Below, in pieces: positions 16,986 through 20,443 of a DNA stretch of 64,000 nt (positions within the stretch are counted from its first letter, which is position 1; each line of letters opens with the position of its first letter). The notes under the pieces are model-generated. The model was not told the origin of the DNA, searched no databases, and was given only the letters and a program-made list of their open reading frames with translations. The stretch lies in NCBI RefSeq assembly GCF_025989125.1, contig NZ_JAPDNR010000001.1, positions 3,523,953 through 3,587,952 of the forward strand, read 5' to 3'. A program made the position numbers and the translations under genes. This stretch comes from Chitinophaga nivalis (GTDB taxonomy: Bacteria; Bacteroidota; Bacteroidia; Chitinophagales; Chitinophagaceae).

Positions 16986-18248
16986 TTAACGACCTTGCAT
17001 CAGGTCTTCTATTTCTTCGATCTCTATCGGCATGGTAGCCATCAGGTCTTCATAGCCGGTAGTAGTAACCAGCAGATCGTTTTCTATCCGGATGCCGATG
17101 CCTTCTTCGGCATTGTAAATACCCGGTTCGTTGGTCAGTACAGCGCCCGCTGGCAGCGGTTCCCGGAAATCGCCGGTATCATGTACATCGAGTCCCAGGA
17201 AATGGGATACATTGTGGTAGCTGTATTTGTTCAGGTAGTATGCCTCTCCGTTTTCACGGATGTCGGCAGTACTGCAAATACCCAGTCCTACCAGTTCTTC
17301 CAGGATAAACTGATTGGAAGCAGCCCACAGATCTTGCATATAGATGCCGGCGCGAACTTGTTGCCTTACTTTTTTATGTACCCGCAATACCGCTGCATAG
17401 TATGCTTTCTGCCGGGGTGTATAGCGGCCATTGGCAGGAATGGTACGGGTACAATCCGCATTGTAGTATTGCCAGCCCGCGGCGGCATCAATTAATAGCA
17501 GGTCTCCGTCTTTGCATGTCTTTTCATTGGCCCGGTAATGTAGTATACAGGTATCGGCGCCGGCGGCTACAATCGCCTCGTAGCCGGCCCAGGTGGCATT
17601 GTGCTGCAGGTATTCATGAATCATTTCTGCCGCAATCTGGTGGCCGGTCTGGCCGGGTTTTACAAAGGAGAGTACCCGGCGGAAACCAGCCTCCGTAATG
17701 TCGCAGGCCTTTTTGAGCAGGGCAATTTCTGCTGGTGTTTTGGCATTGCGCAGCCGGGCGATGATAGGATACAGGCGGCCGTATTGATGCAGGGGATACA
17801 GGCGCTGGAGATCCAGTATCAGCCGGTCTTCCCGTGTTTGTGTTTCACTTTCTGAGCGGGCATGCTCATTGGTATGCAGCATGATTTCCCGGCAACGGGG
17901 GATGACTTTTTTCATCGTGCTCCAGAATTCATCCACATATAACACAGTGGCAATGCCGGAGATAGTGGCCGCTTCTGCTTTGGTATGGCGGTTTCCCAGC
18001 CATTTAACAAACAGTTGGTCTACCCGTTTGATAAAAAGTATTTCCCGCAGTGTTTCGTCCGGATGGTCGGGGCAAAGCACCAGCATGGCATCTTCTTCTT
18101 TGATACCGGTCAGGTAATAGATATTGACATTGGGAACATAACGCATGGTACCATCTGCGTTGGTAGGCATAAGATCGTTGGCGGTAAGGATCGCCACGGA
18201 GTTGGCTGGCAGCTGGCTGCACAGATTTTTACGATGATCGGAAAACAT
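16986..18248 (-). CDS. pepP: Xaa-Pro aminopeptidase (M24B family)
   Basis: 420 aa. It has the M24 pita-bread fold with metal ligands DGDLLLIDAAAGWQYYNADCTRT, HFLGLDVHD and NEPGIY...IRIEND. Confidence 0.85.
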   Translation of the reverse strand: MFSDHRKNLCSQLPANSVAILTANDLMPTNADGTMRYVPNVNIYYLTGIKEEDAMLVLCPDHPDETLREILFIKRVDQLFVKWLGNRHTKAEAATISGIATVLYVDEFWSTMKKVIPRCREIMLHTNEHARSESETQTREDRLILDLQRLYPLHQYGRLYPIIARLRNAKTPAEIALLKKACDITEAGFRRVLSFVKPGQTGHQIAAEMIHEYLQHNATWAGYEAIVAAGADTCILHYRANEKTCKDGDLLLIDAAAGWQYYNADCTRTIPANGRYTPRQKAYYAAVLRVHKKVRQQVRAGIYMQDLWAASNQFILEELVGLGICSTADIRENGEAYYLNKYSYHNVSHFLGLDVHDTGDFREPLPAGAVLTNEPGIYNAEEGIGIRIENDLLVTTTGYEDLMATMPIEIEEIEDLMQGR

Positions 18249-18322
18249 AGTACGACGTGTTTTTATTGCCTTACAAACTTAGGAGGCACACGCCGGAAAA
18301 GTGGTGTAAAAACGCGACAGTT

Positions 18323-19120
18323 TTAGCCGGTAAACCGGCGCCATTCCTTGCGGAAGTGAGAGAAATCATAATAGCCCAGTTCTTCCCAGTCGGCTTTGTG
18401 GCCAAATCGGGCGTAGTGCTCCAGTGCCTGCCGGAAACGGAGGATAGAGAGGCATTTTTTGGGAGAGATGTCCAGCGAATCTGCAAAGTAGCGTTCCAGC
18501 GTACGGGGGGAGAGGTACAGCAGTCCGGCCAGTTTTTTGAGCTGATAGCCGGACTCCAGTAAGGCCGGACTATTCAGTGATTGCCGTACATACCGGAAAT
18601 GCCTGGCCGCTCCGGGTAGTGGGGCTTGTTCCCGCAGAAACGTTTCCAGTAATGTTTTAATGGCTTCCAGGTTGCGGGATTCATAGATGGCCGATTCCAG
18701 CCGGTCTATACGGGGCAGTACATCCCGGGCATTCAATGTTTGCCGGTTAATATCCGCGCCTTTGATCTGAAACAGATAATTCAGGGAAGCAGGTTTGAAC
18801 TTGATGCCCACCAGAAAATTGTTGAAGCCATGGCGATACGTTACGGGGGCGGCATGATAGCCGATTAATTCACTGGTATGGCAGGTATGCACCCAGGTAT
18901 CTGTCTGGTCATGAATGGCAAAAGGGGCGCCCAGGTTCAGTACCAGGGAAGAATACATATTGGCCAGCAGTATTTCTTCAAAAGTGCAGTCCTGCCGCTG
19001 GGGGCTGCGCAGATCCAGCAGCCAGTAGAACAATACATGTTCTGCCAGGTCAGGCGAAGGCGCCATGAACTGGTATTCCCGGGAGAAATGTTGCTGATCT
19101 ATTAATTCGATGGCCTGCAT
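18323..19120 (-). CDS. AraC-family transcriptional regulator
   Basis: 265 aa. The C-terminal AraC HTH pair reads QLKKLAGLLYLSPRTLERYFADSLDISPKKCLSILRFRQALEHYA. Confidence 0.8.
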   Translation of the reverse strand: MQAIELIDQQHFSREYQFMAPSPDLAEHVLFYWLLDLRSPQRQDCTFEEILLANMYSSLVLNLGAPFAIHDQTDTWVHTCHTSELIGYHAAPVTYRHGFNNFLVGIKFKPASLNYLFQIKGADINRQTLNARDVLPRIDRLESAIYESRNLEAIKTLLETFLREQAPLPGAARHFRYVRQSLNSPALLESGYQLKKLAGLLYLSPRTLERYFADSLDISPKKCLSILRFRQALEHYARFGHKADWEELGYYDFSHFRKEWRRFTG

Positions 19121-19363
19121 ACAACAGTGAGTAAACAGCTACAATGTACGAATAAGAAATGAGGTATCGTTTTTCCTGTGGGGTGATTAAACTTTTTGCA
19201 GTCGCACCTGTTAATATGATAGTAACACCATGAAAACCCGGATGAAGAATGATGGCAGTAATGGCTGTAGACTCCTTTCTTTTTCCCGGAGATTCCTACC
19301 TATACATACTTTAAGATACGGTTGATAAACAGGTTGAACATCCTGTAATGGTTCAGGATGTGC

Positions 19364-19403
19364 AAGGGCGGGCCTTAGCACTTGTAGCGCCCGCCCTTTT
19401 TTT
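19364..19403 (+). terminator. Orphan Rho-independent terminator (plus-strand orientation) in a divergent intergenic region
   Basis: AAGGGCGGGC-(15-nt loop)-GCCCGCCCTT followed by TTTTTTT. A second hairpin lies 5' of it at 19336..19363 (GAACATCCTG/CAGGATGTGC). There is no plus-strand CDS upstream. Confidence 0.55.
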
Positions 19404-19751
19404 ATATGATAACGTGAAAGGATATACGAAATTAATCCGATCCCTGCGCCGCTTTTTTTCTTCGCTGCTTTTCCTGATAATGATTTGTTGAAACAACATG
19501 GACGTTGATAACGTACATGCCTGCACGAAAATGGCAGGAGGGTAGGTATATTGCCTGCAAGGTATAAAGTATGCCGGCTGTTGCCAACGGGATTCTCTAT
19601 CTATTTAAGGAGCGCTGCCAGGCGTAAAAAGCCCCTTTTTCTGTTAACGTTTCATTAACAAATATTAAAAAATCATTAAAATAAATTGATAAATTATTGA
19701 TTATAAGTGAATTAGGGAAATTTTAAAATTAAATTTAAACAAGGTTGCGAA

Positions 19752-19788
19752 TAAACGTTTGTTTAAATTAAACGTTTGTTTAACTTTG
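19752..19788 (+). promoter_or_regulatory. Candidate TetR operator (tandem 15-bp repeats) overlapping a Bacteroidetes-type -7 promoter box
   Basis: TAAACGTTTGTTTAA occurs at 19752..19766 and 19769..19783, each containing the palindrome AAACGTTT. TAACTTTG (19781..19788) matches the Bacteroidetes sigmaA -7 consensus TAnnTTTG and lies 23 nt upstream of the tetR ATG. Confidence 0.45.
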
Positions 19789-19810
19789 CTTCGTCAAATT
19801 AAAAAGGAAC

Positions 19811-20443
19811 ATGGAAGACTATAGTGAGAAACAACTCTCGATTATAATGGTAGCGGAACGGTTGTTTGCCGACCATGGCTTTCATGGCACTTCAGTAAGA
19901 GACATAGCGCAGGAAGCGGATGTAAACATTGCCATGATATCCTATTATTTCGGTTCAAAAGATAAACTACTGGAAGCGGTATTCAGATTCAGAATGGAAG
20001 CCTCCCGGAAATTTATCAATGAACTGGTGGAGAACGAAGTCATGTCGCCCCTGGACAAGATATACAGCCTGATAGACCGTTTTGTGAACAAGATGATGGC
20101 AGAACAGTACTTCCAGTGCATTATGAGCCGGGAGCAGCTGAACAAGGATAAAAGTCCGGTACGTGACCTGATATGGCAGTTGAAAAGAGAAATGCTGGGG
20201 TTGATGGAACCTATTATTACCAATGCCCAGAAAACGGGTGCTTTTCATAAAGATGTGGATGTAATGATGATGATGACAACATTGTTCGGGACCATTCATC
20301 AGGTTATACCAGCTCAGTTTATACTCAGAACCGATCCCGCTTATCAAAACATGAGCGATGTTGATTTCCGGGAATACCTGAGAGAAAGATTAAGTAAACA
20401 TTTAAAAAAATTGTTCAAAGCAATCCTTACACATGAATTCTAA
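19811..20443 (+). CDS. TetR/AcrR-family transcriptional repressor
   Basis: 210 aa. The N-terminal HTH is LFADHGFHGTSVRDIAQEADVNIAMISYYFGSKDKL. It is the first gene of the efflux operon. Confidence 0.85.
   Translation: MEDYSEKQLSIIMVAERLFADHGFHGTSVRDIAQEADVNIAMISYYFGSKDKLLEAVFRFRMEASRKFINELVENEVMSPLDKIYSLIDRFVNKMMAEQYFQCIMSREQLNKDKSPVRDLIWQLKREMLGLMEPIITNAQKTGAFHKDVDVMMMMTTLFGTIHQVIPAQFILRTDPAYQNMSDVDFREYLRERLSKHLKKLFKAILTHEF

What the first reader, a model, noticed from the sequence alone, without database searches (positions are those of the whole stretch)
19150..19403. Orphan intrinsic terminator and tandem hairpins in the 690-bp AraC/TetR divergent intergenic region: candidate small RNA
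A strong plus-strand terminator lies at 19364..19403 (a 10-bp GC-rich stem plus U7). A second hairpin sits immediately upstream at 19336..19363. Yet the nearest upstream gene is on the minus strand (AraC, start 19120), and the downstream tetR starts 400 bp later behind its own promoter. Two stem-loops followed by a U-tract is the typical 3' architecture of Hfq-independent Bacteroidetes sRNAs. The region has no ORF of 60 aa or longer.
Basis: seen in the sequence. Interest (0 to 1): 0.5.

Follow-up and report, generated by a model that had tools for sequence, protein, structure and literature searches.

The report
Conserved candidate small RNA in Chitinophaga
The "orphan" terminator is the 3' end of a single-copy, non-coding RNA gene candidate of about 180 nt that is conserved in more than 25 Chitinophaga genomes, is absent from Rfam, and has not yet been shown to be transcribed.

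Summary
There is an 8-bp hairpin (19338-19361), a perfect 10-bp GC-rich terminator stem (19364-19398) and a T7 tract (19397-19403). They lie on the + strand of the araC/tetR spacer of Chitinophaga nivalis, with no ORF of 60 aa or more.

Comparative data turn this into a defined element. The roughly 95-nt core (19310-19404) recurs once per genome in 28 other Chitinophaga genomes, MAGs and metagenome contigs. All copies share the invariant 16-mer ACGGTTGATAAACAGG (19318-19333; one copy carries two extra A).

Both hairpins are kept: 97.5% of cells pair, and two pairs show compensatory changes. There are 52 G·U cells and no A·C cells, and every copy has a T-tract. Both facts place the RNA on the + strand.

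All copies carry an upstream two-block motif, (G/A)AAC-N16/17-TGTTAA (19189-19214). Its spacer varies freely, and it is not the Bacteroidetes sigma-A box. ORFs starting at a shared ATG differ in frame and length, so the element is non-coding.

Relatives have a convergent response-regulator or DUF1440-like gene ending at the terminator. C. nivalis has lost these genes, which is why the terminator looks orphan.

Most likely this is a trans-acting sRNA of about 184 nt from a new family. Transcription, the start site and the targets are untested.

The parts
19189..19197 (+). -35-like block AAACTTTTT of the conserved two-block upstream motif (consensus tGAAC(t/a)TTTT)
   Evidence: The motif is present in 28 of 29 homologues as (G/A)AAC-N16/17-TGTTAA, and in the 29th (L057) with one mismatch (TGTTAG). 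The spacer sequence varies freely. No other occurrence was found in 0.53 Mb of related loci, against about 2 expected.
19207..19215 (+). -10-like block CCTGTTAAT (consensus cCTGTTAAyTA)
   Evidence: This is the most conserved stretch upstream of the RNA. It does not match TAnnTTTG, nor the CGT box reported for a Flavobacterium ECF-type motif.
19220..19312 (+). Predicted 5' region of the RNA. The start at about 19220 is inferred from the motif. The sequence is variable and no consensus structure was found.
   Evidence: Only 44-57% identical to relatives. RNAalifold predicts no conserved pairs here. ORFs from the shared ATG (19230) are 7-32 aa long, fall in three frames over the same nucleotides, and the ATG is absent in 10 of 29 copies.
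19313..19333 (+). Invariant segment AAGAT-ACGGTTGATAAACAGG. The 16-mer at 19318-19333 is the proposed target-recognition (seed) region.
   Evidence: The 16-mer is identical in all 27 distinct aligned copies apart from a 2-A insertion in L057. It was also found in all 5 metagenome copies retrieved with a pattern that did not require it. The 20 genome copies were retrieved with a pattern that contains it.
19338..19361 (+). Hairpin 1 (8 bp, 8-nt loop)
   Evidence: 98.6% of cells pair. Pair 36-50 alternates U-A, C-G and U-G. Pair 37-49 is U-G in 15 copies and U-A in 11. Loop length varies from 4 to 9 nt.
19364..19403 (+). Intrinsic terminator: 10-bp stem, 15-nt loop, T7 tract
   Evidence: 96.7% of cells pair, with a compensatory C-G to U-A change in L022 and L034. 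Six to nine T among the 10 nt after the stem in all 29 copies, and no matching A-run on the other side.

Best explanation
Window ~19220-19403 (+) is a stand-alone gene for a non-coding small RNA of about 184 nt. It belongs to a previously undescribed family restricted to a clade of the genus Chitinophaga.

Proposed mechanism:
1. Transcription starts a few bases after a conserved two-block motif (AAACTTTTT at 19189-19197 and CCTGTTAAT at 19207-19215). The motif is not the housekeeping sigma-A promoter, so it is probably read by an alternative sigma factor or a dedicated activator. This step is inferred.
2. The RNA has a fast-evolving 5' part, an invariant segment (19313-19333), a conserved 8-bp hairpin, and a strong intrinsic terminator that ends the transcript at about 19403. 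The structure, the strand and the conservation are shown.
3. The invariant 16-mer most likely base-pairs with one or more mRNAs in trans, as characterised Bacteroides sRNAs do. This step is inferred, and no target was found.

In other Chitinophaga the terminator lies from overlapping the stop codon to about 85 nt from the end of a convergent response-regulator or DUF1440-like gene (one locus, L022, has a gap of ~860 nt). C. nivalis lacks these genes, probably through loss, but has kept the RNA gene intact. That is why the terminator looks orphan here.
For: - Conservation: the core is 71-87% identical to relatives, equal to or above the flanking araC (67-72%) and tetR (73-78%) coding sequences, while the DNA between the blocks is barely alignable.
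- Distribution: 20 of 20 genome hits to the 16-mer pattern are Chitinophaga, one per genome. Five more copies came from a metagenome scan that did not require the 16-mer, and all five carry it.
- Copy number: the covariance model finds a single copy in the 64-kb window (103 bits).
- Structure: 97.5% of 484 pair cells are paired. No shuffle reached the observed covariation score or the observed number of double changes (0 of 500), and slid partners pair in only 37-66% of cells.
- Strand: 52 G·U cells against 0 A·C cells, giving 97.5% paired on the + strand and 86.8% on the minus strand. The T-tract is on the + side only in all 29 copies.
- Promoter-like motif: present in 29 of 29 copies (one with one mismatch), with a variable spacer, and not found elsewhere in 0.53 Mb.
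- Non-coding: ORFs differ in frame and length, and 1-nt indels lie inside conserved nucleotide blocks.
- Independent of neighbours: the upstream gene is araC, a 650-aa protein or a HAD hydrolase. The downstream gene is the response regulator, the DUF1440-like gene or, in C. nivalis, neither.
- Not a known family: nothing in Rfam reaches a gathering score.
- Precedent: intergenic Bacteroides sRNAs with their own start site and an intrinsic terminator, and GibS with a conserved single-stranded seed and a non-canonical promoter motif (PMC7366714).
Against: - There are no expression data, so the start site and the transcript are predictions.
- The upstream motif matches neither the sigma-A consensus nor the CGT -10 box reported for a Flavobacterium ECF-type motif. 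It could be a transcription-factor site rather than a core promoter.
- Covariation is modest: only 2 of 18 pairs show double changes, because the sequences are close relatives.
- The 16-mer is not predicted to be preferentially unpaired (mean unpaired probability 0.47, against 0.46 for the 5' region).
- No convincing complementary target was found in the window or at the starts of the neighbouring genes.
- Part of the 16-mer (GTTGATAAAC) is a near-palindrome, which is also compatible with a DNA-binding site.
Confidence: 0.65

Rival explanations
1. The element is the terminator and 3'-UTR module of the convergent DUF1440-like/HK-RR operon and acts on the minus strand. On this view the C. nivalis copy is a relic left after those genes were deleted.
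For: In most other genomes a convergent gene ends from overlapping the T-tract to about 85 nt from it (L022 is the exception at ~860 nt). The response-regulator stop codon overlaps the T-tract.
Against: - The 52 G·U cells would become A·C mismatches on the minus strand.
- No T-tract follows the hairpin on that strand in any of the 29 copies.
- The element is the same whether the convergent gene is the response regulator, the DUF1440-like gene or absent.
- The C. nivalis copy is intact and scores 103 bits, within the family range of 89-115.
- This view does not explain the conserved two-block motif and the 5' block on the far side.
Confidence: 0.1
2. The RNA is real, but it acts by binding or sequestering a protein, or as a cis-antisense partner of the convergent mRNA's 3' end, rather than by pairing with mRNAs in trans.
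For: No target complementarity was found. The invariant segment is long (16-21 nt) and not clearly single-stranded. The RNA overlaps the stop codon of the convergent gene in many genomes.
Against: Antisense action cannot apply in C. nivalis, where the partner gene is absent and the RNA is still conserved. Only 64 kb of this genome could be searched for targets, so the lack of a target is weak evidence.
Confidence: 0.15
3. The conserved blocks work as DNA. They would be binding sites for a regulator or sigma factor, or a target site of an RNA-guided factor, that controls neighbouring genes. The hairpins would then be only a terminator.
For: GTTGATAAAC is a near-palindrome. GAAC...GTT in the upstream motif is partly palindromic, and in one subgroup it is a perfect palindrome, GAACAT-N-ATGTTC.
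Against: - Hairpin 1 is not needed for a terminator, yet it keeps pairing through wobble and compensatory changes.
- The neighbouring genes differ among genomes.
- The 16-mer sits at a fixed distance from the hairpins but a variable distance (80-181 nt) from the upstream motif.
Confidence: 0.06
4. The element is a small-protein gene (the 31-aa ORF at 19230-19325), or a type I toxin-like hydrophobic peptide gene, followed by its terminator.
For: An ATG followed by AAAAAC is conserved in 19 of 29 copies. Several relatives encode 22-aa hydrophobic peptides ending in LLLK or ILLK.
Against: - Peptide lengths range from 7 to 32 aa.
- The same conserved nucleotides are read in three frames (PPVFVF, SSCICF, LLYLFF).
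- The ATG is absent in 10 of 29 copies.
- The most conserved part of the element (16-mer and hairpins) lies outside or across the stop codons.
Confidence: 0.03
5. The element is a cis-acting leader or attenuator of the downstream tetR-efflux operon, or a chance hairpin or degraded gene tail.
For: In C. nivalis alone, tetR follows on the same strand 408 nt downstream.
Against: - In every relative where the downstream neighbour is known, it is convergent.
- tetR has its own -7 box and operator repeats.
- tblastn with the DUF1440-like protein, RR, HK, AraC, TetR and the M24 peptidase finds no remnant.
- Chance is excluded by the shuffles and by the conservation.
Confidence: 0.01

Closest known systems
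GibS and other canonical intergenic sRNAs of Bacteroides thetaiotaomicron (PMC7366714; PMC11697453)
   Same: - Stand-alone intergenic gene with its own start and an intrinsic terminator.
- Conserved within one genus.
- A highly conserved stretch proposed or shown to be the seed.
- GibS is driven by a promoter motif (PM2, boxes near -10 and -30, near-palindromic) that is not the sigma-A box.
- The host phylum lacks Hfq and ProQ.
   Different: - No detectable sequence relationship.
- The GibS seed is in its unstructured 5' 30-50 nt, whereas here the invariant segment lies directly 5' of the two 3' hairpins and the 5' part is the variable one.
- GibS is experimentally validated and this element is not.
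- The PM2 sequence is given only in a figure, so it could not be compared with GAAC-N16/17-TGTTAA.
Sigma-E-dependent sRNAs of enterobacteria (MicA, RybB, MicL) (from general knowledge)
   Same: An sRNA gene behind an alternative-sigma-type promoter with an AAC-containing -35 block and a spacer of about 16-17 nt, ending in an intrinsic terminator.
   Different: - Different phylum.
- Those sRNAs depend on Hfq and have 5'-terminal seeds.
- Here the -10 block (CTGTTAA) is not a known ECF -10 box, and no cognate sigma factor has been identified.
Rfp sRNA candidates of Flavobacterium psychrophilum (PMC9723704)
   Same: Intergenic, structured, genus-level conserved sRNA candidates in a non-Bacteroides member of the phylum, with targets predicted only in silico.
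   Different: Those have transcriptome support. No sequence or structure match could be tested, because they are not Rfam families that hit this element.
Best sub-threshold Rfam matches: Xoo2 (RF02241), sbrA (RF01489), STnc320 (RF02066)
   Same: The generic shape of two hairpins followed by a U-tract.
   Different: Scores are 19-20 bits against gathering scores of 45-50, with E-values of 0.4-0.9. The matches rest on the GC stem and the U-tract only.

Membership tests
Intrinsic (Rho-independent) terminator | GC-rich stem directly followed by a U-tract on the transcribed strand | tested here: met
   10-bp stem with 8 G-C pairs, followed by T7. The T-tract is present in all 29 homologues on the + side only.
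Intrinsic (Rho-independent) terminator | Short loop (3-8 nt in the consensus scan) | tested here: not met
   The loop is 15 nt here and 15-19 nt in homologues, so the scan did not report it. RNAalifold adds two inner pairs that shorten the loop.
Canonical intergenic trans-acting sRNA (own start site plus intrinsic terminator, as defined in PMC7366714) | Own promoter and transcription start | tested here: inconclusive
   A conserved two-block motif with a variable spacer lies 80-181 nt upstream of the 16-mer. There is no sigma-A box. There are no transcript data.
Canonical intergenic trans-acting sRNA (own start site plus intrinsic terminator, as defined in PMC7366714) | Non-coding | tested here: met
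   No conserved frame: ORFs of 7-32 aa in three frames, and the ATG is missing in 10 of 29 copies. No spacer ORF reaches 60 aa.
Canonical intergenic trans-acting sRNA (own start site plus intrinsic terminator, as defined in PMC7366714) | Conserved seed with complementary mRNA targets | tested here: inconclusive
   An invariant 16-mer is present. No target stands out in the 64-kb window or at the starts of the neighbouring genes. A whole-genome search was not possible.
Canonical intergenic trans-acting sRNA (own start site plus intrinsic terminator, as defined in PMC7366714) | Detectable stable transcript | not testable with these tools
   No RNA-seq or Northern data are available.
Any Rfam 15 family | Score at or above the family's gathering threshold | tested here: not met
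   No hits at the gathering threshold in the window or in five related loci. The best sub-threshold score is 19.5 bits against 45.
Bacteroidetes sigma-A promoter | TAnnTTTG -7 box upstream of the transcript | tested here: not met
   No TAnnTTTG or TAnnTTT on the + strand in 19100-19420. The homologues have no conserved box of this type.
ECF-sigma-type promoter | AAC-containing -35 block and a spacer of about 16-17 nt | tested here: met
   (G/A)AAC-N16/17-TGTTAA in 28 of 29 copies, plus one near-match.
ECF-sigma-type promoter | CGT-type -10 box (as reported for the F. psychrophilum SM6 motif, PMC9723704) | tested here: not met
   The -10-like block is cCTGTTAAy and contains no CGT.
ECF-sigma-type promoter | Cognate sigma/anti-sigma pair, and the same motif at other genes | tested here: inconclusive
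   The full motif, with the T-rich extension after AAC, is not found elsewhere in the window; two bare (G/A)AAC-N-TGTTAA matches on the minus strand were judged chance. It is not found in 0.53 Mb of loci. The rest of the genome could not be searched.
Small-protein or type I toxin gene | Reading frame and peptide conserved among homologues | tested here: not met

The most novel reading that the evidence does not exclude
The RNA may not be an mRNA-pairing sRNA. It could be a guide-type RNA, with a variable 5' scaffold, an invariant 16-21-nt guide and a terminator, that directs a protein to one conserved nucleic-acid site. This would resemble the RNA-guided transcription recently described for dCas12f-sigma-E in Bacteroidetes (PMC13472631). 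The odd promoter-like motif and the lack of mRNA targets nearby do not contradict this. However, no partner protein gene lies next to the element in any of the 29 loci, and the 5' part shows no conserved structure.
Probability: 0.03. Interest if true: 0.85.

Novelty: new member of a known kind. Interest (0 to 1): 0.42.

Why it matters
Post-transcriptional regulation in Bacteroidota outside the gut Bacteroides is almost uncharted. I found no described sRNA for Chitinophaga, a large genus of soil and rhizosphere bacteria.

This element is ready to test:
- It is a single-copy gene with predicted boundaries.
- It has a perfectly invariant 16-nt candidate seed.
- It has a specific upstream motif that is not the sigma-A box and could identify an unknown sigma factor or activator.
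- It lies close to a TetR-controlled efflux operon in the 15 loci that extend that far, and usually to a two-component system as well.

It also gives a practical lesson: strong terminators with long loops are missed by standard scans.

Tried and rejected
- Degraded-gene hypothesis. tblastn with the DUF1440-like protein, RR, HK, AraC, TetR and the M24 peptidase of relatives against 19000-19900 gave only noise (E >= 0.003, scattered hits). An apparent ~80-nt tail of the response-regulator gene suggested by nhmmer was not confirmed by blastn or tblastn.\n- Small-protein hypothesis. Rejected from the frames.\n- Known RNA family. Nothing was found. There are no tRNA or tmRNA genes.\n- Repeat or mobile element. 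There is a single copy in the window and one per genome.\n- Link to araC. Rejected. araC and the M24 peptidase travel as a pair without the element in C. pendula and more distant relatives, and half of the element loci lack araC.\n- First genome scan with AraC peptide patterns. It found nothing.\n- Target search. RNAduplex over the whole window, over the start regions of six neighbouring gene families in up to 14 genomes each, and 9-mer complement searches all stayed within background. The recurrent GGTTTATCAA inside tetR is explained by homology and is absent in C. nivalis.\n- Seed accessibility. It is not distinctive.\n- Consensus structure for the 5' region. None was found.\n- Comparison with Bacteroides promoter motif PM2. 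Not possible, because the motif is given only as a figure.

Full report
**Source and observation**

The window comes from Chitinophaga nivalis (GCA_025989205.1, contig JAPDNS010000002.1). The 690-bp spacer lies between araC (a DUF6597/HTH_18 regulator, 18323-19120, minus strand) and tetR (19811-20443, plus strand).

- An 8-bp hairpin: 19338-19345 pairs with 19354-19361.
- A perfect 10-bp GC-rich stem: 19364-19373 pairs with 19389-19398, with a 15-nt loop.
- A run of seven T at 19397-19403.

The 76-nt segment folds far better than shuffled sequence (z = -4.17; 0 of 200 shuffles as good). The stem pattern is unique in the window. The generic terminator scan missed it only because its loop limit is 8 nt. 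No spacer ORF reaches 60 aa. tetR has its own TAACTTTG -7 box. The + strand between 19100 and 19420 has no sigma-A-type box. Rfam gives nothing near a gathering score, and there are no tRNA genes.

**Conservation**

The AraC proteins of the closest relatives are only 63-75% identical to the C. nivalis protein. Even so, a block of about 100 nt that coincides with the hairpins (window ~19304-19409) aligns at 80-87% with loci from four other Chitinophaga.

- A genome-collection scan for the invariant 16-mer plus four bases of hairpin 1 returned 20 hits. All were Chitinophaga, with one hit per genome.
- A metagenome scan used a pattern from hairpin 1 and the terminator that did not include the 16-mer. 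It returned 5 true copies among 37 hits, and all 5 carry the 16-mer. One of them has two extra A.
- A covariance model built from 27 distinct copies finds exactly one copy in the 64-kb window (103 bits). It finds none in araC loci of more distant species.
- The core is as conserved at the nucleotide level (71-87%) as the neighbouring araC (67-72%) and tetR (73-78%) coding sequences. Most of its variation falls in the loops.

**Structure and strand**

On the 27-sequence alignment, 97.5% of 484 pair cells form standard pairs, against 37-66% when the 3' partners are slid by 1-3 columns.

- Two pairs show changes on both sides: U-A to C-G in hairpin 1, and C-G to U-A in the terminator.
- No shuffle out of 500 reaches the observed covariation score or the observed number of double-change cells.
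- The covariation is modest because the sequences are close relatives. Many pairs never vary and so say nothing either way.

The strand is clear. There are 52 G·U cells and no A·C cells, so pairing would fall to 86.8% if the RNA were read from the minus strand. All 29 copies have 6-9 T among the 10 nt after the stem on the + side, and none has an equivalent run on the other side. The loop of hairpin 1 varies from 4 to 9 nt while the stem is kept.

**Upstream motif and extent**

Every copy has the motif (G/A)AAC-N16/17-TGTTAA upstream (L057 has TGTTAG). Its last base lies 80-181 nt before the 16-mer.

- Aligned on TGTTAA, conservation is confined to two blocks, tGAAC(t/a)TTTT and cCTGTTAAyTA. 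About 11 unconstrained positions lie between them, which is the pattern expected of a two-block promoter.
- The full motif, with the T-rich extension after AAC, was not found elsewhere in the window. Two bare matches to (G/A)AAC-N-TGTTAA on the minus strand were judged chance. It was not found in 0.53 Mb of related loci either.
- It does not match the TAnnTTTG consensus of Bacteroidetes sigma-A.
- The AAC-containing -35 block and the spacing resemble ECF-type promoters, which is an inference from general knowledge. The -10 block lacks the CGT box reported for the Flavobacterium ECF-type motif. The factor that reads the motif is therefore unassigned.
- In one subgroup the -35 block is part of a perfect palindrome, so a transcription-factor site remains possible.
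- If the motif is a promoter, the C. nivalis RNA runs from about 19220 to 19403, or about 184 nt. Homologues would be about 155-255 nt.

The 5' part is poorly conserved (44-57% identity) and has no consensus structure.

**Non-coding nature**

An ATG shortly after the motif is shared by 19 of 29 copies. The ORFs that start there are 7-32 aa long. Single-nucleotide indels put the same conserved nucleotides into three different frames. The best-conserved part of the element lies beyond or across the stop codons.

**Genomic context**

With the element on the + strand, the downstream neighbour in most other genomes is a convergent gene. It is either an OmpR-type response regulator, the last gene of a DUF1440-like/HK/RR cluster, or the DUF1440-like gene itself.

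- The end of that gene lies from overlapping the T-tract to about 85 nt from it; in one locus (L022) the gap is ~860 nt. The response-regulator stop codon overlaps the T-tract.
- Beyond that cluster lies the tetR-OEP-MFP-MFS efflux operon, seen in 15 of the 27 other loci; the remaining loci end before that point.
- The upstream neighbour is araC in about half of the loci. In the others it is a co-directional 650-aa protein gene or a HAD hydrolase gene.
- The araC/M24-peptidase pair also occurs elsewhere without the element.

C. nivalis is the only genome in which both the DUF1440-like gene and the two-component pair are missing. No remnant of them is detectable. The RNA element is nevertheless complete and scores within the family range. 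This explains the "orphan" look of the terminator. It also argues that the element is maintained for its own sake and not as an appendage of the convergent genes.

**Mechanism**

The best-supported reading is a stand-alone regulatory small RNA. An invariant stretch next to two 3' hairpins is what a target-recognition region looks like. Characterised intergenic Bacteroides sRNAs have their own start site and an intrinsic terminator. GibS combines a conserved seed with a non-canonical promoter motif (PMC7366714).

Several steps are inferred and not shown. These are transcription itself, the start site, the identity of the sigma factor or activator, and base-pairing with targets.

The searches for targets were negative or uninformative. 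They covered the window, the start regions of six neighbouring gene families across genomes, and 9-mer complements. The 16-mer is not predicted to be especially accessible. A protein-binding or antisense mode therefore remains a real alternative. A purely DNA-level role is less likely because of the wobble-specific conservation of hairpin 1.

**Comparison with known systems and verdict**

The element behaves like a canonical intergenic sRNA. It is not a member of any Rfam family. I found no paper describing an sRNA in Chitinophaga.

I classify it as a new member of a known kind, namely a new genus-level sRNA family candidate. I give about 0.65 confidence that it is an independently transcribed non-coding RNA gene that acts as a regulator. 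Interest is moderate: it is a clean, testable candidate in an understudied lineage, but it is not surprising in kind.

Noticed in passing
window 19752-19788: Tandem 17-nt direct repeats TAAACGTTTGTTTAA(A/C)T, each containing the palindrome AAACGTTT. They lie directly upstream of, and overlap, the tetR -7 box TAACTTTG (19781-19788), so they are a likely TetR operator. The ~150 nt upstream of tetR are about 77% conserved in relatives.
   Followed up: partly
window 19141-19148 (minus strand): TACATTGT (TAAATTGC in relatives) matches the TAnnTTGY variant -7 box described for Flavobacterium (PMC9723704). It lies about 20 nt upstream of the araC start codon and is the probable araC promoter, back to back with the RNA's upstream motif.
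   Followed up: partly
window 19404-19650: About 250 nt between the terminator and the conserved tetR upstream region have no detectable homologue in relatives. They occupy the place where other Chitinophaga carry a DUF1440-like gene with or without a histidine kinase/response regulator pair. The stretch contains a weak 25-nt direct repeat (19407-19431 and 19506-19530, 72% identity).
   Followed up: partly
L066, L067, L068 and window 16986-19120: The DUF6597-type araC gene and the M24 Xaa-Pro aminopeptidase gene stay adjacent across distant Chitinophaga and other Bacteroidota, while everything around them changes. They behave as a two-gene unit.
   Followed up: partly
window 20433-20443: The tetR stop overlaps the start of the outer-membrane efflux protein gene by 11 nt. 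tetR therefore appears to be the first gene of a tetR-OEP-MFP-MFS operon.
   Followed up: no
L003 8422, L006 6249, L008 6197, L016 5816, L023 5786 (tetR coding sequence, about +270): A 9-10-nt complement of the invariant 16-mer (GGTTTATCAA) recurs inside tetR in five relatives but not in C. nivalis. I judged it to be chance carried along by homology, but it is the only recurrent complementarity seen.
   Followed up: partly
L006, L008, L009, L010, L020, L023 (upstream motif): In the subgroup where the DUF1440-like gene is the convergent neighbour, the -35-like block is part of a perfect palindrome (GAACAT-N9-ATGTTC, or GAACATT-N5-AATGTTC in L010). This hints at a dimeric DNA-binding protein acting at the promoter.
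   Followed up: no
L013, L017, L025, L026, L033 (5' region of the element): Several relatives encode 22-aa hydrophobic peptides ending in LLLK or ILLK from the shared ATG. They are read in two different frames of the same nucleotides. This is probably a by-product of the T-rich sequence.
   Followed up: partly
window 51197-51274: A weak covariance-model hit (16.5 bits, E = 0.13) to the element model. I judged it a chance hairpin match.
   Followed up: no
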